From positions 1 through 6,471 of the IMG/VR virus record IMGVR_UViG_2537561829_000009: a stretch of 6,471 nucleotides of DNA. One strand, 5' to 3'. Source of the stretch: a virus. Its lineage: Duplodnaviria; Heunggongvirae; Uroviricota; Caudoviricetes. The notes beneath the pieces are model-generated. The model was not told the origin of the DNA. It saw only the letters and a list, made by a program, of their open reading frames with translations, and made no database searches. Shown here one piece after another: positions 1 through 6,471 of the stretch (the first letter of the stretch is position 1; each line of letters begins with the position of its first letter). The translations under genes were made by a program, and so were the position numbers.

Positions 1-315
1 TTCGCCATATTTTCTATATTTTTCAAGCCAGTTGCATACAGTACCAAAGGCTGGTATTCCGTGTTTTACCGCTACTTCACGAACAGAAAAACAGTCATCC
101 ACGACTTCTTTTACTACTGTGAGTTTTAACTCAGCAGAATAGCGTCCTTTTTTACCCGTAAGTATGCTTATCCCATGTTCCCGATAGGCATAAGCCCATT
201 TTCTTACTGTGCAGGGACTGATACCGTACATCCTTGCTACAGATTTCAGACTCAACTCTCCCTCCAGGTACTTTTCTGATACTACCTTTTTGAACTCCAA
301 TGAAAACTTTTCCAT
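1..315 (-). CDS. IS3-family (IS150-group-like) transposase OrfA, N-terminal helix-turn-helix part; start codon inside the window, 3' end runs off the window start
   Basis: Translating the minus strand from the ATG at 315..313 gives 105 codons with no stop down to position 1: MEKFSLEFKKVVSEKYLEGELSLKSVARMYGISPCTVRKWAYAYREHGISILTGKKGRYSAELKLTVVKEVVDDCFSVREVAVKHGIPAFGTVCNWLEKYRKYGE. This ORF is not in the supplied track because it is truncated by the window edge. It has the duplicated HTH pattern (YGIS..TV.KW...Y.EHG, then S.REVA..HGIP...V..WL.KY...GE) that I recognise from OrfA proteins of the IS150 group of the IS3 family. The region is visibly more AT-rich than the phage genes next to it. The family call is from memory, not a search. 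Confidence 0.7.
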   Translation of the reverse strand, partial: MEKFSLEFKKVVSEKYLEGELSLKSVARMYGISPCTVRKWAYAYREHGISILTGKKGRYSAELKLTVVKEVVDDCFSVREVAVKHGIPAFGTVCNWLEKYRKYGE

Positions 316-362
316 GCATCCTCAGTTTTTGGTCTGGTGTCTAACCTTTGGGGCGCAGTTCA
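1..362 (-). mobile_element. Partial insertion sequence (IS3 family), one end only; inner boundary approximate, somewhere in 316..362
   Basis: OrfA occupies 1..315. Read on the minus strand, the 47 nt upstream of its ATG are TGAACTGCGCCCCAAAGGTTAGACACCAGACCAAAAACTGAGGATGC. A TGAAC start about 45 nt before orfA is typical of IS3-family terminal inverted repeats, which would put the IS end at 362. The other IS end is outside the window, so the inverted repeat cannot be confirmed. Confidence 0.45.
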
Positions 363-2818
363 TTACCAATGGACACAACACCGCTGGTATTATTAATTGT
401 AATCGGTCGCAAACTGTTCCATGAACCTAACGTATCTCCTGATGCTGTTAGCATGAAATATGTGCTGCCGCCGTCATTACGGATAAAGAACCCATAGTTA
501 CCGTAAGCAATGCGGAAACCATTTGCATATTTTGAAACGATCTCACCAGAAGACGTTACCCCCCCAGATAATGTGCCACCTGAAAGCGGTAATGCTCCTA
601 CATCAGAAGCTGTTGGTTTGTTTCTGGTGTTATAAGAACGACGCCAGCCTGGCGCATAACCACTTCCATTGTACACATAAATAAATTCCGCATTATTAAC
701 ACCACCATGACCCGATGTTGTTGTCGTTGTAACACGAATAGTGTAATTGCTTGTTGCCTTATTACTAAACACCTCAATCACGGAACCAGATAGATCGATC
801 CTACCGCAACCAGTGTCGTCTATATAATTATTGTTGGCGTAAACCCATGAGCACCGTGCAATCCAATATTTGTTTGAAAATGCACCCTGATTATTTAGCC
901 ACGTTATAAACTGAGCAGTCGTAAATGCTGTTCCGTTACCACTATTTAACCATCCGGCGGCAGCGGTTGGTGCGTTTATATCAGCCGGCTGAGGTCTAAA
1001 TCCAGTCGTGTAAACCTGCTCCCAACCACTTTCAAAACCATAACCGTCTCTTGAAGAACGGTAGAACAGACCACCATTTCTGTAATGCGCCTTCATCTGC
1101 AGGGTCCGGCAACTTCCGACTCCGGTATAGAAGTTAACCAGAATATAGCTGTCGCCAGAGCGGGTGACATTGTAAGCGCCTGATTCGGCATTCCAGGGAA
1201 CGCCACCATCCGCATCGGCATACGTATCCGTTGCCCTTCTGGCAAAAGCAGCCACATGCGCGGCGGTTAAAGTGATATCCGCAGTCAGTGCTTTACCGTT
1301 AACTTTTCGGTTAGATGGCACCCTGCTATTCGCATTGTCATTGGCTGCTTTAACTGCTTTTGGCGTTGCGGCCAGCGATTCACTGGTGCTATCAACAGCA
1401 CTGCTAAGTTTCACAACACCTTTAGTTGTAAGGCTTGCGTCTTCCATCGCAACTGCACCGGCAATCTCTTCAGCACGATCAGCAGCAGCTTCCGCACGGG
1501 TCGCAGCGGATTCAGCAGCAGTTTTGCTCTGAGATGCTGCCGTCGCACTGCCTGCCGCCTCTGTTGCTTTCGTGGATGCCGTCGTGGCGCTGCCCTTCGC
1601 TGCTGACGCCTGTCTGGTCGCCTCATCTTTTGAAGCAGACGCAGATGATGCCGATGACGCCGCAGAACTGGCTGACGATGCGGCTGCCGCCTTAGAGGAA
1701 GCAGCATTGTCTGCTGAAGTCTTTGCATTTGTTTCAGAGGTTTTTGCTGCAGAAGAAGACCTCGCTGCTGCAGTGGCTTGCTCAGTGGCTTTGCCCGCCT
1801 TCGTTGTGGCTGTTGAAGCGGATGATGCGGCGCTTTCTGCCGATTTTCCGGCGGCGGTGGCACTGGCTGAGGCCTGCCCGGCACTTGTTGACGCGGCACT
1901 GGCAGACGACGCAGCCGCTGTTTTTGAACCTGCCGCAGCTGAGGCGCTCTGTCCCGCTGCTGTTTCAGAAGACTTAGCGTTCGTCTCGGACGTTTTTGCC
2001 GCCTTCGCGGAATTTCCTGCCGCCGTTGCCGAGGAAGCTGCATTACTGGCACTTGATGATGCATTCGTTTCTGATGATTTCGCTGCCTCTTTTGAGGCCG
2101 CCGCACCCCGTGCCGAGGTGGCAGCTTCTGACGCCTTTGTGGTCGCGGCGGATGCAGAAGTGGCTGCAGATTTTTGTGACGCTGCCGCATTCGTTTCTGA
2201 CGTTTTCGCGGCACTGGCACTGGTAGCTGCCGCGCTTTTTGAGGACTCTGCGGCGGCAGCACTTTTTGATGCTTCAGTGGCCTTTGTTGATGCTGTTCCT
2301 GCGCTGGAAGACGCTGACTGAGCCGACGACGCGGCCTGTCCGGCTGACGTGCTGGCTGCACGTGCTGAGCCTGCAGCATCAGTTGCACGGGTTGCCGCCT
2401 CACGGGCTGATGTGCCGGCATCGCTGGCTGACTTCTTCGCGGCTGCCGTGTTCTGTGCCACTGCGGACGCGTTACGCGCCACCTCTTCCACCATCAGTTC
2501 AAAGCGGCGCAGTGCCTCCGGACGGACATCATCCTCCGTCATGGCACCGAGAAAATCATTCAGCGTACCCGGTTGTGAGTCTTCATACACGGTGATGGTC
2601 CCGGCATGCGATGGCGGGAAGCCTTCCACCAACAGAATAACGCTGTACTGACCGTACTCAACGTCCATGCTGTAACGCCCGGCTTCATCCGGATTTTCTG
2701 AGGCCACCGTGTTCGCCACCACCGTGGTGCTGTTACGTTTTGCTTTCAGCTGGATTGTACAGTTCTGTACCGGTTTACCTGCACCGTCTTTCAGTACACC
2801 TGAAATCTTTACTGCCAT
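341..2818 (-). CDS. stf: Side tail fibre protein Stf (lambda Stf-like N-terminus and Ala/Ser/Thr-rich rod; divergent C-terminal domain; probably 3'-truncated by the adjacent IS)
   Basis: The track ORF 341..2824 begins MNMAVKISG with a GTG; the likely true start is the ATG at 2818..2816, preceded by GGGGTGA as a Shine-Dalgarno about 6 nt upstream. The N-terminus MAVKISGVLKDGAGKPVQNCTIQLKAKRNSTTVVANTVASENPDEAGRYSMDVEYGQYSVILLVEGFPPSHAGTITVYEDSQPGTLNDFLGAMTEDD matches lambda Stf as I recall it. A long KTSETNA-type Ala/Ser/Thr-rich rod follows. The C-terminal part carries tail-fibre motifs (GALPLSGGTLSGGVT, GFFIRNDGGSTYFMLTASGD). The stop TAG is at 343..341, only 25 bp from the IS orfA start. Confidence 0.88.
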   Translation of the reverse strand: MAVKISGVLKDGAGKPVQNCTIQLKAKRNSTTVVANTVASENPDEAGRYSMDVEYGQYSVILLVEGFPPSHAGTITVYEDSQPGTLNDFLGAMTEDDVRPEALRRFELMVEEVARNASAVAQNTAAAKKSASDAGTSAREAATRATDAAGSARAASTSAGQAASSAQSASSSAGTASTKATEASKSAAAAESSKSAAATSASAAKTSETNAAASQKSAATSASAATTKASEAATSARGAAASKEAAKSSETNASSSASNAASSATAAGNSAKAAKTSETNAKSSETAAGQSASAAAGSKTAAASSASAASTSAGQASASATAAGKSAESAASSASTATTKAGKATEQATAAARSSSAAKTSETNAKTSADNAASSKAAAASSASSAASSASSASASKDEATRQASAAKGSATTASTKATEAAGSATAASQSKTAAESAATRAEAAADRAEEIAGAVAMEDASLTTKGVVKLSSAVDSTSESLAATPKAVKAANDNANSRVPSNRKVNGKALTADITLTAAHVAAFARRATDTYADADGGVPWNAESGAYNVTRSGDSYILVNFYTGVGSCRTLQMKAHYRNGGLFYRSSRDGYGFESGWEQVYTTGFRPQPADINAPTAAAGWLNSGNGTAFTTAQFITWLNNQGAFSNKYWIARCSWVYANNNYIDDTGCGRIDLSGSVIEVFSNKATSNYTIRVTTTTTSGHGGVNNAEFIYVYNGSGYAPGWRRSYNTRNKPTASDVGALPLSGGTLSGGVTSSGEIVSKYANGFRIAYGNYGFFIRNDGGSTYFMLTASGDTLGSWNSLRPITINNTSGVVSIGNELRPKG
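1470..2430 (-). repeat. Low-complexity Ala/Ser/Thr-rich repetitive coding region inside stf (fibre rod)
   Basis: Stf residues ~130..450 are almost entirely A/S/T/K/E/G with recurring units such as AAKTSETNA, KSSETAAGQSASAAAG and SSASSAASSASSA. The DNA is GC-rich and lacks stops in several frames, which produces the long overlapping track ORFs 1411..2421(-), 1572..2321(+) and others. Boundaries are approximate. Confidence 0.6.
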
Positions 2819-2828
2819 ATTCACCCCA

Positions 2829-2856
2829 CAAAAAAGCCCGCCAGAACCGGCGGGCT
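2829..2856 (-). terminator. Putative intrinsic (rho-independent) terminator between lom and stf, oriented for minus-strand transcription
   Basis: Perfect 8-bp stem 2835..2842 (AGCCCGCC) pairing with 2849..2856 (GGCGGGCT), 6-nt loop AGAACC. On the minus strand the hairpin is followed immediately by TTTTTTGTGGGG (complement of the A-run 2830..2835). The plus strand has no T-run after the hairpin, so it is unidirectional. It lies 27 bp downstream of the lom stop and overlaps the stf ribosome-binding region. Confidence 0.6.
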
Positions 2857-2882
2857 GTCATAACACTGTGTTACCTGGCTAA

Positions 2883-3482
2883 TCAGAACTTATAACCGAC
2901 ACCCACGATGAAACCGTCAGTGCGCCAGTCGCCACTGCCGGAGCCTTCATAAGCGACATCAATGGCCACGGATTCGGTCGGGTTAAACTGCACGCCAGCC
3001 CCCCACGCCAGAGACATGTTGCTGTGGCGACCGTCATCACTTCCGGTCAGCACATCGTGCGTTTTCCCCTTGTTGTCAGTTACGCGGAGATAATCCCCGG
3101 AGAAAGTCGACACACGGCTGTAAGCCACACCCACCATCGCATACGCGCTGAACCATTCATTCACGCGTACAGACGGCCCCGCCATCACGCTGAACCAGCG
3201 GTTACGCACGGAATCTTCATGCCAGCGGGTATCGCTGTAGCGCGTTTTTTGCTCATCCTCAGCATTGGCATAACTGAAGGACGTAATCAGCCCCAGCGCG
3301 TCCGTAAACTCATAACGGTATTTCACGTTAATCCCGTTCAGATTATCGCTGCCGGGAGCGTTCGTACGGGCATGAAGATACCCTGCGCTCAGTGTGGCCT
3401 GCTGCTCAGACGCCCATGCAGGCGCACCGGATACGGCCAGACAGATGGCTGCGGACAAAATGGCTGCACAAACTTTACGCAT
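2883..3482 (-). CDS. lom: Lom outer membrane protein (Ail/Lom/OmpX-type 8-strand beta-barrel; lambdoid prophage moron)
   Basis: 199-aa ORF with ATG at 3482..3480 and GAGAGG Shine-Dalgarno about 6 nt upstream. N-terminal signal peptide MRKVCAAILSAAICLAVSGAPAWA with an A-W-A cleavage motif. C-terminal ...GFIVGVGYKF ends in an aromatic residue, as outer-membrane beta-barrels do. The sequence is near-identical along its length to lambda Lom as I recall it (NLNGINVKYRYEFTD, RWHEDSVRNRWFSVMAGPSVRVNEWFSAYAM, LAWGAGVQFNPTESVAID). Position between J and stf matches the lambda gene order. Confidence 0.93.
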   Translation of the reverse strand: MRKVCAAILSAAICLAVSGAPAWASEQQATLSAGYLHARTNAPGSDNLNGINVKYRYEFTDALGLITSFSYANAEDEQKTRYSDTRWHEDSVRNRWFSVMAGPSVRVNEWFSAYAMVGVAYSRVSTFSGDYLRVTDNKGKTHDVLTGSDDGRHSNMSLAWGAGVQFNPTESVAIDVAYEGSGSGDWRTDGFIVGVGYKF

Positions 3483-3504
3483 AATTACCTCTCGCTTTTC
3501 TGCA

Positions 3505-3530
3505 ATAAAAAAGGCGCCATTTCTGGCGCC
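3505..3530 (-). terminator. Putative intrinsic terminator between J and lom, oriented for minus-strand transcription
   Basis: Perfect 7-bp stem 3513..3519 (GGCGCCA) pairing with 3524..3530 (TGGCGCC), 4-nt loop TTTC. On the minus strand it is followed by TTTTTTAT (complement of the A-run 3507..3512). It lies 20 bp downstream of the J stop and about 20 bp upstream of the lom Shine-Dalgarno. Confidence 0.6.
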
Positions 3531-3549
3531 CGTATATGGGTTATAAAAT

Positions 3550-5073
3550 TCAGCTGATACTGATGCCTGCGGTGGCTTTCTTCATCACCACAACCAGCAA
3601 ATCGCTGATACTTGCTGTGGGATACCAGTTATTTACCAGCCATGATGACACCGAAAACTCCAGCGTCATGTGGCCGCGACCGGCAGGCATATCAATAACG
3701 CCACTGTAAATCAGCGTATTATCCAGCGCGGTACGGTTATAAATTTCAGCACCGTTTTTCCGTACTATCAGGCGGCATGACGAATAAATATCGTTATTCT
3801 CCCTCTCATGTTTAGCGCCGCTGAATGCCACCGCCGGAATAACAATCTGCCGGTCAAACGGCTGATCGTCATAAACCCTGACGGTGATGGTCCCTGATGG
3901 CCACCGTTCCGGTGCACGGGAGTCCCGGGGGAAAGCTTTGCCCACTGTTTTAACGAGATCGCCTTCAATCTGGTTGGCGGACAGTTTTCCCAGAACCCGA
4001 CAGTTCTCGTTAATCGTGACGTTGTTGAGCGTCCCGGAGTTCGCATTCACGCTGCCACTGATATCTGCATTTTTCGCCGTCAGCCGCCCGTTCGGTGTCA
4101 GGGAAAATACCGGAGGATTACCGCCGCTGGTAATGGTGGGAGCCGTCAGGCGTTTCAGGAACACGTCGTTCATGAATATCTGATCGCCCTGCCCAACAAA
4201 CATCGGCTTTGTGTTGCCATTCGCAGGATTAATCATCGCAATCCTGTCTGCCGCCAGCAGCACCTGACTCTGCATGCCGTCAGGGGTGTTCTCAATACCG
4301 GCACCAATACCCGCGATATAAAGGCGTCCGTCCTGCATCTGCTGCAGCTTCACAGCCCACATGCTGTTCAGGTTATTATTTGTATCAACCTGAACCTTCT
4401 GTATCTGCTGGATCGCTGCACTCTGGTCTTCCAGTTTCTTATTGACGGTCTGTGTGATTTCATTGCTGACATCCGTAATGGACGTCCTGATTTCAGCCAG
4501 GTCAGGCGCAAGCTGACCGTTATCAATCTGCGTCCACAACTCCTGGGCCAGATGTGTTTTCCCGATTTCTCCTTTGAAAAAATCCAGATAGCCGGATGCG
4601 TCATCACTCGGCTGACCAACAGCCTCCACGAATGCCGATTTGCCAACGGTGTTCACACTGCGAACGTAAAAATAATAATTATGGCCCGGCCTGATATTGA
4701 TACTGGCGGCTATCCAGTACAGCGCCGTACCAAGATAGCGGGCTGTGGTTTCAACCTGCCTGATATCCGCAATCCGCTTTTCCGAGAACCAGAACTCAAA
4801 CTGTACCGTCGGGTCATAAACGGCAAGATGCGGCGTGGCGGTTATCTGAAAATAGCCCGGCGTCAGCTCAAGCCGCGACGGCACTGCAGGTGCGGCAATC
4901 CGGAACGATACCGATGCCGGATCGCCCTGCTGCCCCCACGCATTTACCGCCCGGACTGTCAGCCTGTAGTTCCCTGGCGCCAGCTGCGTGAAGCGGTATG
5001 TGGTTTCCGTCGTCCGGGCCGTGCTGACCAGCCGCTCACTGCCGTCATCCGCTGCCACGGTCAGGCGAAGCAA
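3550..5073 (-). CDS. J: Intact C-terminal segment of J (fibronectin-like and receptor-binding region); a gene caller would report it as a separate CDS
   Basis: Track ORF 3550..5073, 507 aa. The 5073 start is an ORF-finder artefact (TTG inside the J frame). Content is J-like throughout ([64 protein letters not shown]). The last ~150 aa differ substantially from lambda J. Confidence 0.55.
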
Positions 5074-5449
5074 AGCTCACCCCTTCACCACCTTCGGCGT
5101 GTCCCAGCGCCAGCACCTGTATTCCCCGCTGTCTGCGGTGACTTCGGCGGTCAGTGCTGCACGCTGGCGGCGTGACACCATTCACCGTGCCGCTCTGGTC
5201 CGTCAAAGTGCGCCCCGTTATCCACGATGGCTTCTTTTCCGGTACATGCTGCACGCAGTGATGGCATACGTACCGTCGTCGTTCTCACGGATACTCACAC
5301 AGCGGAACAGGCGCTGGCGCAGCGTCGGCAGCTTCAGCCCCCACACGCTGTATCGGCAACGCCGTCAGGAACCCGGCTCACTTTCACCTTCACGCCGTCG
5401 GTGAGGACTGACCTCCACGCTGACCGGATCCCTCCGTCAACCAGGCTTA

Positions 5450-6471
5450 TCAGCGTGGTCCGGAGGATGGCAGCGTGATTTCACGGTCGAGCGTCAGCGT
5501 CCGGGTCTGGCTGTTCACCGCCAGCACGCGCCCCGGTGCTGATACCGGCATAGTCATCATCGCAGATTTCAATGACATCCCCGGTACATGGCGAAGCCCT
5601 TCGCACCCACGCTGAAGTCCACGGTCTGCGTTCCAGCAGTTCGTTTTAATCAGCCACAGCCCGGCGCGGTGTGCCTGCCCCCGGCTGGTACAGCCAAAAG
5701 CATCCATCTTCGTGACGTTACGACCGTAACGGGCAATGGCCTGAGTATCTTCAACAAGCTCTGTCGCCGTCTCCCAGCCGTTGTTCGGGTCAATCCAGTT
5801 CACCTCAACGGCATTATGGCGGTCCTTCAGGGCGCTGAAGCTGTAGCGGAACGGCGCACCATCATCCGGCATCACCACATTACTGCGGTTATAGGTCCAC
5901 ACCTTATCTGATGGTCGGTCCTGCACGAACATCAGCGTCTGCCCGTTCCATACCGGCATACAGCGCATCGCCGAGCAGAAATCACTGAGCACATCCCACG
6001 CCTTGCGCTGTGTGGTCAGGTACGCATTACAGGTGATGCGCGGCTCCGTGCCGCCAAAGCCGTCCGGCACCGACTGGTCGCAGTACTGGCCGATGACATA
6101 CAGCGCCCATTTATCTACATCCGCTGCACCAAGACGTTTCCCCATGCCGTAGCGCGGATGGGTCAGCATATCCCACATACACCAGGCCATGTTGTTGCTG
6201 TATGCTGGCTTAAACGTTCCGTCCCAGATACCGCTGTATTGCCGCGTCTGCGGGTTATAGTTCGACGGCACCTGCAGAATGCGCCCGCGCAGATGATAAT
6301 TACGGCTCACCTGCTGGCTGCCGAACTGCTCCGAATCCACCTGTACGCCGACCAGTGCCGTGTTCGGGTAGCACTGTTTCACATCGATGATTTCGGTGTA
6401 TGACGACCAGAGCGTTTTGTTCTGCAGCTGGTCTGTGGTGCTGTCCGGCGTCATCCTGCGCATCCGGATAT
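5450..6471 (-). CDS. J: Upstream in-frame segment of J (5' end beyond window) ending at a premature stop created by frameshifts
   Basis: Track ORF 5450..6463, which continues in frame to the window edge at 6471. It is a clean J match down to about 5642; the last ~65 codons before the TGA at 5452..5450 alternate between J-matching and out-of-frame stretches. Confidence 0.5.
   Translation of the reverse strand, partial: IRMRRMTPDSTTDQLQNKTLWSSYTEIIDVKQCYPNTALVGVQVDSEQFGSQQVSRNYHLRGRILQVPSNYNPQTRQYSGIWDGTFKPAYSNNMAWCMWDMLTHPRYGMGKRLGAADVDKWALYVIGQYCDQSVPDGFGGTEPRITCNAYLTTQRKAWDVLSDFCSAMRCMPVWNGQTLMFVQDRPSDKVWTYNRSNVVMPDDGAPFRYSFSALKDRHNAVEVNWIDPNNGWETATELVEDTQAIARYGRNVTKMDAFGCTSRGQAHRAGLWLIKTNCWNADRGLQRGCEGLRHVPGMSLKSAMMTMPVSAPGRVLAVNSQTRTLTLDREITLPSSGPR

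What the first reader, a model, noticed from the sequence alone, without database searches (positions are those of the whole stretch)
1..362. IS3-family element inserted against the 3' end of stf, probably truncating the side tail fibre and removing tfa
An IS150-group-like transposase OrfA starts at 315, only 25 bp from the stf stop at 341. The expected tail-fibre assembly gene (tfa) after stf in lambdoid phages is absent. If the IS end is the TGAACTG at 362..356 on the minus strand, the last ~7 Stf codons (NELRPKG) are IS-encoded and the native distal tip is lost or displaced. The IS region is also more AT-rich than the phage genes. Together with the J defect this points to a degrading, defective prophage.
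Basis: partly seen in the sequence, partly recalled or inferred. Interest (0 to 1): 0.5.

Follow-up and report, generated by a model that had tools for sequence, protein, structure and literature searches.

The report
Insertion sequence splitting a prophage tail-fibre gene
A 1,420-bp mobile element of the IS3 family has jumped cleanly into the side tail fibre gene of a lambda-like E. coli prophage, cutting off its last third, which is an ordinary event; the only notable detail is that this element seems to choose a specific short palindrome as its landing site.

Summary
Window 1-362 is the left end of a 1,420-bp IS150-group (IS3 family) insertion sequence.

A sister assembly (L004) holds the whole element, flanked by a 4-bp duplication, GTAA. 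Removing the IS and one GTAA restores a 1,190-codon stf. That gene is 3573/3573 nt identical to an IS-free allele in E. coli NCCP 13717.

The insertion lies after codon 819. Six IS-encoded codons (ELRPKG) and a stop follow, giving an 825-aa product.

Two parts of the interpretation fail:
- tfa is not removed. In L004 the last 371 stf codons and an intact tfa lie just beyond the IS. The window simply ends inside the repeat.
- The "J defect" is 20 small deletions within 570 bp, in a gene that is intact in L004. It looks like an assembly artefact.

One extra result came out of the work. Independent copies of this IS sit in TGTCCA-N7-11-TGGACA palindromes: 10 of 23 flanks carry an exact TGGACA 6-8 bp from the tip. 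The motif resembles the subterminal part of the element's own inverted repeats.

Overall this is an ordinary IS disruption by a new member of a known kind.

The parts
1..362 (-). Left (IRL-proximal) 362 bp of a 1,420-bp IS150-group insertion sequence; the rest lies off the contig
   Evidence: Identical to L004 12457-12818. E. coli IS copies match 1-362 at 100% identity and stop there.
336..362 (-). Left inverted repeat, TGAACTGCGCCCCAAAGGTTAGACACC, with the TG tip at 362-361
   Evidence: Pairs with IRR TGAACTGCGCCCCAGATCTTGGACAAC in L004. Resembles the IS150 inverted repeats.
1..315 (-). First 105 of 168 codons of orfA (two HTH domains)
363..366 (-). One copy of the 4-bp target-site duplication, GTAA (TTAC on the + strand)
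   Evidence: GTAA flanks both IS ends in L004 and occurs once in the IS-free allele L002.
341..361 (-). IS-encoded tail of the fused ORF: GAA CTG CGC CCC AAA GGT TAG, i.e. ELRPKG plus stop
   Evidence: The native allele reads ...VSIGNGLNVTGG... at this point.
341..2818 (-). Truncated side tail fibre ORF (825 aa from the ATG at 2818; 827 aa from the GTG at 2824). It keeps phage_tail_N and the Gp34_trimer-like domain and lacks the distal 371 residues
363..376 (.). Stf-side half of the target palindrome (minus strand GTGTCCATTGGTAA; TGTCCA at 375-370). This half made megablast extend IS matches to 376

Best explanation
Window 1-362 is the IRL end of a 1,420-bp IS150-group (IS3 family) insertion sequence. 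It transposed by the usual IS3-family route into a lambda-type side tail fibre gene, between codons 819 and 820 of 1,190, and duplicated 4 bp (GTAA). That route (copy-out through a circle, then paste-in) is inferred from family membership.

Reading on from stf, translation crosses 6 IS-encoded codons and stops. The product is an 825-aa Stf that keeps the N-terminal attachment domain, the Ala/Ser-rich shaft and a gp34-trimer-like domain. It lacks the Collar domain and the distal receptor-binding part.

The distal 371 codons and tfa are displaced 1.42 kb downstream, not deleted. This is shown in a sister assembly and inferred for the window's own strain. The window ends inside the IS because short-read assemblies break at repeats.

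The site was probably not random. stf contains TGTCCA-N7-TGGAC, and independent copies of this IS sit in the centre of TGTCCA-N7-11-TGGACA palindromes. The arms resemble the subterminal TTGGACA/TTAGACA block of the element's own inverted repeats. The inferred mechanism is that the HTH part of OrfAB or OrfA binds the target arms as it binds its own ends, and so positions strand transfer 6-8 bp away.
For: IS identity:
- OrfA has HTH domains and OrfB has rve domains.
- An A6G frameshift window lies in the orfA/orfB overlap.
- The catalytic motif is D(59)D(35)E with K at +7, identical in spacing to IS150.
- OrfB is 57% identical to IS150 InsK, and the inverted repeats are IS150-like TG...CA ends.

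Simple insertion:
- L004, a 568-kb contig, carries the same 825-aa Stf, the whole IS, then a 350-aa Collar-containing ORF and tfa.
- GTAA flanks both ends.
- Removing the IS and one GTAA gives a 1,190-aa ORF that is 3573/3573 nt identical to the IS-free allele in E. coli NCCP 13717.
- Window 1-3630 is identical to L004.
- The displaced 371 aa match side tail fibre C-termini of lambdoid phages.

Target preference:
- 14 sites gave 23 flanks. Ten carry an exact TGGACA 6-8 bp from the tip, against a chance rate of about 0.0017 per flank (binomial P about 2e-22).
- Empty sites were seen for stf (L002) and for the dadX-cvrA spacer in K-12.
- Four sites were hit in both orientations.
- The only TGTCCA-N6-12-TGGAC site in the 21-kb reconstructed native region is the insertion point.
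Against: - The window itself does not contain the right IS end, so 'simple insertion' is transferred from L004.
- A third assembly (L005) joins the same stf-IS junction to the dadX-cvrA site instead.
- The target motif was found post hoc in the same flanks used to test it.
- Some sites may have spread by descent or by riding on IS66 elements rather than by repeated insertion.
- Three to four sites (L009, L013, L033) lack the motif, so it is a preference and not a rule.
- Binding of the transposase to the target arms is pure inference.
Confidence: 0.9

Rival explanations
1. IS-mediated deletion or rearrangement. In the window's own strain the IS right end is joined to unrelated DNA, so the stf 3' part and tfa are truly gone.
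For: L005 (GCA_000356765.2) joins the identical stf-IRL junction, through the IS, to the cvrA side of the dadX-cvrA site. That geometry fits a roughly 57-kb deletion between two direct IS copies. The window contig ends in the IS, so nothing excludes this directly.
Against: - L004, on a 568-kb contig, shows the intact insertion with its duplication, the stf 3' part and tfa.
- The dadX-cvrA site is a common independent target of this IS (L025, L029, L034, L043). A second copy there, plus a short-read misjoin through a 1.4-kb repeat, explains L005 equally well.
- A 57-kb loss that includes phoPQ, purB, icd and minCDE is unlikely in a natural isolate (map positions are from my knowledge of K-12).
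Confidence: 0.12
2. The IS really ends at about 375-376 (TGTCCAT...ATGGACA termini) and this copy carries a variant inverted repeat. The stf/IS boundary would then be 13-14 bp further into stf.
For: Megablast aligns more than 100 E. coli copies through window 376 with only 3 mismatches (365-367). L001 shows a 42-nt inverted repeat that includes TGTCCAT/ATGGACA.
Against: - The IS-free stf allele already contains GTGTCCATTGGTAATGGAC as coding sequence.
- K-12 has the same kind of palindrome empty at dadX-cvrA.
- The bases between CAGTTCA and TGGACA vary in sequence and length between copies and include the 3-4-bp duplications.
- Many copies match 1-362 at 100% identity and end exactly there.
Confidence: 0.01
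3. A naturally short Stf allele, or an assembly chimera that joins an IS read to stf.
For: Only three draft assemblies carry the 825-aa protein. None of 5,426 complete E. coli genomes has the junction.
Against: - The same junction appears in three separate assemblies, one of them on a 568-kb contig.
- A perfect 4-bp duplication is present, and precise excision restores a known allele.
- The six terminal codons are IS inverted-repeat sequence.
Confidence: 0.02
4. The target choice reflects DNA structure (a hairpin or cruciform, as proposed for elements that target PU/REP sequences), not sequence-specific recognition of TGGACA.
For: - The targets can fold as DNA hairpins of -5 to -10 kcal/mol.
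- Relatives with near-identical inverted-repeat tips in metagenomes lie next to REP-like palindromes.
- IS1397 and ISKpn1, also IS3 family, target palindromic units (PMC1525189).
Against: - The arm sequence itself is conserved across unrelated sites, while the spacers differ.
- Two sites (a DcrB-like gene and a P4-like integrase gene) have only one good arm yet were used, one of them in both orientations.
- The motif matches the element's own subterminal repeat block.
Confidence: 0.2

Closest known systems
IS150 (E. coli K-12 insJ/insK; IS3 family, IS150 group)
   Same: - Two overlapping ORFs with an A6G -1 frameshift window.
- D(59)D(35)E with K at +7.
- OrfB 57% identical.
- Inverted repeats of the pattern TG.ACTG..CCC......TTGGACA.
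- Target duplications of 3-4 bp.
- Similar length (1,420 against 1,443 bp).
   Different: OrfA is only 31% identical. The inverted-repeat tips differ (TGAACTGCG against TGTACTGCA). I do not know of a TGTCCA...TGGACA target preference reported for IS150. No ISfinder name could be obtained for the present element.
IS1397 / ISKpn1 (IS3-family elements that insert into palindromic units of BIMEs)
   Same: IS3-family elements that insert into the centre of short palindromes, with specificity attributed to the transposase (PMC1525189, citing Wilde et al. 2003).
   Different: The targets here are not REP/PU sequences. They are TGTCCA-N7-11-TGGACA sites in coding DNA, in the 5' leader of an IS66-family element and in one intergenic spacer. 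Sequence relatedness to IS1397 was not tested, because no IS1397 sequence was available.
Targeting of IR-like sequences by IS911 and IS30
   Same: The insertion goes into or next to sequences that look like the element's own transposase-binding sites.
   Different: This comparison rests on my memory of that literature, not on a test here. In the present case the target mimics only the subterminal block, as a head-to-head pair, and a normal duplication is made.
Lambda Stf/Tfa and the frameshifted stf of laboratory lambda (PaPa)
   Same: The gene order is J-lom-stf-tfa. A phage_tail_N domain is present, and the distal part resembles lambdoid side tail fibre C-termini. A broken stf leaves a phage without side fibres.
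   Different: Here the break is an IS insertion at codon 819, not a frameshift. This Stf is longer (1,190 aa) and has an extra gp34-trimer-like domain.

Membership tests
IS3 family, IS150 group | orfA and orfB overlap, with an AnG -1 frameshift window that yields OrfAB | tested here: met
   orfA is L004 12504-13010 and orfB is 12986-13849. An A AAA AAG window lies at 12955-12961. RefSeq annotates other copies of this element as 448-aa programmed-frameshift products.
IS3 family, IS150 group | DDE catalytic domain with D(57-60)D(35)E and K six residues after E (criteria as listed in PMC5771124) | tested here: met
   D135, D195, E231 and K238 give the spacing 59/35, identical to IS150 InsK. Pfam domains rve, rve_2 and rve_3 are present.
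IS3 family, IS150 group | HTH DNA-binding domain in OrfA | tested here: met
   HTH_28 (4.5e-18) and HTH_Tnp_1 (1.7e-17). The window part alone matches the NCBIfam IS3 transposase model only below its cut-off.
IS3 family, IS150 group | Imperfect terminal inverted repeats ending 5'-TG...CA-3'; 3-4-bp target duplication | tested here: met
   Duplications of 3-4 bp were found at 8 reconstructed sites, with GTAA in stf.
IS3 family, IS150 group | OrfB groups with IS150 rather than with the IS3, IS2, IS51, IS407 or IS911 groups | tested here: inconclusive
   OrfB is 57% identical to IS150 InsK and the inverted-repeat pattern is shared. No tree against the other groups was built.
IS3 family, IS150 group | Transposition through a figure-of-eight and circle intermediate | not testable with these tools
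   Inferred from family membership only.
PU/REP-targeting IS3 elements (IS1397, ISKpn1, ISPsy8) | Insertion inside REP/PU palindromes of BIMEs | tested here: not met
   None of the 14 sites is a REP/PU. The arms are TGTCCA/TGGACA. More distant relatives in metagenomes (OrfB about 52% identical) do lie beside REP-like palindromes.
PU/REP-targeting IS3 elements (IS1397, ISKpn1, ISPsy8) | Insertion at the centre of a short palindrome, in either orientation | tested here: met
   The tip lies 6-8 bp from each arm. Four sites are occupied in both orientations.
Lambda-type side tail fibre (Stf) with its assembly protein Tfa | N-terminal prophage tail fibre domain; position after J and lom | tested here: met
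   PF08400 covers residues 1-134 at 1.1e-71. The gene order is J, lom, stf.
Lambda-type side tail fibre (Stf) with its assembly protein Tfa | Distal receptor-binding part followed by tfa | tested here: met
   This is met in L004 and L002 only. A Collar domain lies at 960-1007, the last 371 aa are 74% identical to lambdoid side tail fibres, and a 194-aa Caudo_TAP gene follows directly. None of this is present in the window's ORF.

The most novel reading that the evidence does not exclude
This unnamed IS150-group element would be a sequence-specific insertion sequence. Its transposase, or OrfA, would recognise head-to-head TGGACA half-sites (TGTCCA-N7-11-TGGACA) that mimic the subterminal binding block of its own inverted repeats. 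Its main natural landing pad would be the 5' leader of ISCro1/ISEc8-type IS66 elements, and a chance copy of the motif in stf would have caused this disruption. I found no description of this specificity in the searchable literature.
Probability: 0.45. Interest if true: 0.4.

Novelty: new member of a known kind. Interest (0 to 1): 0.25.

Why it matters
For the prophage, the result means virions, if made, would lack functional side tail fibres, while the rest of the tail module need not be defective. That corrects an over-reading of decay.

For annotation, there are three practical lessons:
- A contig that ends inside an IS is not evidence that downstream genes were lost.
- BLAST extension into a conserved target motif can misplace an IS boundary by 14 bp.
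- Clustered small deletions in a draft contig should not be read as pseudogenisation.

The target preference, if confirmed, would add a tractable example of how IS3-family transposases choose sites. It would also explain why this IS is so often nested in IS66 elements.

Tried and rejected
- Exact scan of species-representative genomes for the 24-nt IRL: 0 hits.
- Full-text search for the inverted-repeat sequence: only chance matches.
- Attempts to name the IS through NCBIfam, cluster member names (only 'IS3 family transposase' and one 'ISRSO11-like' label) and literature searches: no ISfinder name obtained.
- The IS1397/ISKpn1 primary papers (PMC169884, PMC95333) are not held, so a direct comparison with IS1397 was not possible.
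- My early idea that the junction arose by microhomology-mediated deletion, or by recombination between IRL and an IRL-like stf sequence (from the 13/16 match at 361-376), was dropped. L004 showed both ends with a clean GTAA duplication.
- The reading of a 1,446-bp IS with TGTCCAT termini was rejected on the empty-site evidence.
- One tblastn call failed on a frame error and was repeated.

Full report
**What is in the window**

All genes are on the minus strand. J is split into two ORFs (6463-5450 and 5073-3550), followed by lom (3482-2883) and stf (2818/2824-341). An ORF then starts at 315 and runs off the window start. That last ORF encodes 105 residues with HTH_28/HTH_Tnp_1 domains. It is the N-terminus of a 168-aa OrfA of an IS3-family element. 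The window is itself a complete 6,471-bp draft contig, AQAB01000100.1 of GCA_000356805.2, reversed.

**Where the IS ends**

Megablast of window 1-420 against 5,426 complete E. coli genomes found the element in 250 genomes. The top matches ran to position 376 with three mismatches at 365-367. Matches to stf homologues began at 357. That overlap looked like an odd hybrid junction.

It was resolved by looking up the exact 825-aa Stf product. Three draft assemblies encode it, and one of them, L004, carries it on a 568-kb contig with both IS ends. The sequences compare as follows:
- L004: ...GTGTCCATTG[GTAA]TGAACTGCGCCCC...IS...GGGGCGCAGTTCA[GTAA]TGGACTAAATG...
- IS-free allele in E. coli NCCP 13717 (L002): ...GTGTCCATTGGTAATGGACTAAATG...

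The element is therefore 1,420 bp, with TG...CA tips and a 4-bp duplication, GTAA. In the window its tip is the TG at 362-361. A spread sample of E. coli hits confirms it, because many copies match 1-362 at 100% identity and stop exactly there.

**Identity of the element**

- orfA (168 aa) and orfB (287 aa) overlap, and an A AAA AAG window lies in the overlap region.
- OrfB has rve domains and the motif D(59)D(35)E with K at +7, the same spacing as IS150.
- OrfB is 57% and OrfA 31% identical to IS150 InsK and InsJ.
- The inverted repeats follow the IS150 pattern:
  - this IS: TGAACTGCGCCCCAAAGGTTAGACACC and TGAACTGCGCCCCAGATCTTGGACAAC
  - IS150: TGTACTGCACCCATTTTGTTGGACG and TGTACTGACCCCAAAAAGTTGGACA

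These features meet the IS150-subgroup criteria listed in PMC5771124. I could not obtain an ISfinder name, because all sources call the protein "IS3 family transposase".

**Effect on stf**

Removing the IS and one GTAA from L004 gives a 1,190-codon ORF. It is 3573/3573 nt identical to the IS-free allele, so the insertion is precise and recent.

The native protein has three recognisable domains:
- phage_tail_N at residues 1-134
- a Gp34_trimer-like domain at 709-808
- a Collar domain at 960-1007

Its last 371 residues are about 74% identical to side tail fibre C-termini of lambdoid phages. The insertion lies after codon 819. The N codon is preserved, and then ELRPKG plus stop are read from the inverted repeat (361-341). 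Truncation is therefore real, but it removes 31% of the protein, not just a tip.

**tfa and prophage decay**

In L004 the IS is followed by a 350-aa ORF, which is the stf remainder, and an intact 194-aa Caudo_TAP tfa. Window 1-3630 is identical to L004. The simplest reading is therefore that the window's strain has the same arrangement and the contig merely broke in the repeat.

A third assembly, L005, joins the same junction to the cvrA side of the dadX-cvrA spacer. That spacer is itself a frequent target of this IS. L005 is therefore either a deletion between two direct copies or a misjoin, and I cannot decide which.

The J "defect" consists of 20 small deletions confined to 5073-5643, plus scattered SNPs, relative to an intact 1,159-aa J in L004. 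This looks like a poor consensus rather than decay.

**Why megablast ran to 376: a target preference**

I collected flanks from E. coli genomes, viral contigs and metagenomes. They gave 14 distinct sites and 23 flanks.
- Ten flanks carry an exact TGGACA 6-8 bp outside the tip, and 14 carry at least 5 of 6 matches. Chance gives about 0.0017 and 0.032 per flank, so the binomial P values are about 2e-22 and 7e-16. The motif was found post hoc in these same flanks.
- Reconstructed native targets are TGTCCA-N7-11-TGGACA palindromes. They include the 5' leader of ISCro1/ISEc8-type IS66 elements, the dadX-cvrA spacer, a DMT transporter gene, one unidentified metagenomic site (L019) and stf. A DcrB-like gene and a P4-like integrase gene have only one good arm.
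- The dadX-cvrA site is empty in K-12.
- Four sites are occupied in both orientations.
- In the 21-kb reconstructed native prophage region, the only TGTCCA-N6-12-TGGAC site is the insertion point.

The arms resemble the subterminal TTGGACA/TTAGACA block of the element's own inverted repeats, a block also present in IS150. I infer that the HTH of OrfAB or OrfA binds the target arms. This step is inference only.

More distant relatives in metagenomes have OrfB about 52% identical and near-identical inverted-repeat tips. They lie beside REP-like palindromes. That fits the known palindrome-targeting habit of some IS3-family elements, such as IS1397, ISKpn1 and ISPsy8 (PMC1525189).

**Verdict**

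The feature is an ordinary, recent IS disruption of a non-essential tail fibre gene. The IS is an apparently undescribed member of a known group, and its target preference deserves a bench test. None of the complete E. coli genomes searched carries this particular junction.

Noticed in passing
window 5073-5643 (J gene, minus strand): There are 20 one- or two-base deletions within 570 bp, relative to the intact 1,159-aa J of sister assembly L004, and none elsewhere. This splits J into two ORFs and looks like a consensus or assembly artefact rather than pseudogene decay.
   Followed up: partly
window 3630-6344 versus 1-3630: The window is identical to L004 from the IS through lom. It then differs by dozens of clustered SNPs across J. 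This suggests either a mosaic J allele or a collapse of several prophage J copies in the draft assembly.
   Followed up: no
L005 2521-3940 and its right flank: In GCA_000356765.2 the same stf-IS junction continues into the cvrA side of the dadX-cvrA spacer, followed by ldcA, emtA, ycgR and treA. This is either a roughly 57-kb deletion between two direct IS copies or a misjoin through the repeat.
   Followed up: partly
L001 1926-1942 and 3363-3376; also L007, L012, L030, L039, L040: Most E. coli copies of this IS are nested in the 5' leader of ISCro1/ISEc8-type IS66 elements. They sit in the palindrome ATGTCCATCATTTTTAATGGACAC just upstream of the tnpA start, in both orientations. What that palindrome does for IS66 is unknown.
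   Followed up: partly
L038 2060-2079 (K-12 MG1655, dadX-cvrA spacer): K-12 carries an empty perfect target (TGTCCATTAAAAGGATGGACA, within a 12-bp-arm palindrome ATAGTGTCCATT/GATGGACACTAT) about 110 bp upstream of an annotated partial IS1414. Its native function is unknown.
   Followed up: no
L022 548-2003 and L023 154-1609: These are 1,456-bp relatives from metagenomes, with OrfB about 52% identical and inverted-repeat tips TGAACTGCGCCCCAAATGTTGGACAG. They sit next to REP-like palindromes (e.g. CTGTAGGAGCCAACTTGTTGGCGA), not TGGACA sites.
   Followed up: partly
window 1400-2420: The Ala/Ser/Thr-rich repetitive shaft of Stf produces long spurious ORFs in other frames and on the opposite strand (for example 1411-2421 on the minus strand and 1572-2321 on the plus strand). 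They should not be called as genes.
   Followed up: no
L002 1260-1433 and 2306-2890; L004 16361-16627: Beyond tfa, the prophage end next to potB carries a SAM-dependent methyltransferase gene and a second, partial tail fibre assembly gene. The latter is probably a remnant of an invertible or exchanged fibre cassette.
   Followed up: no
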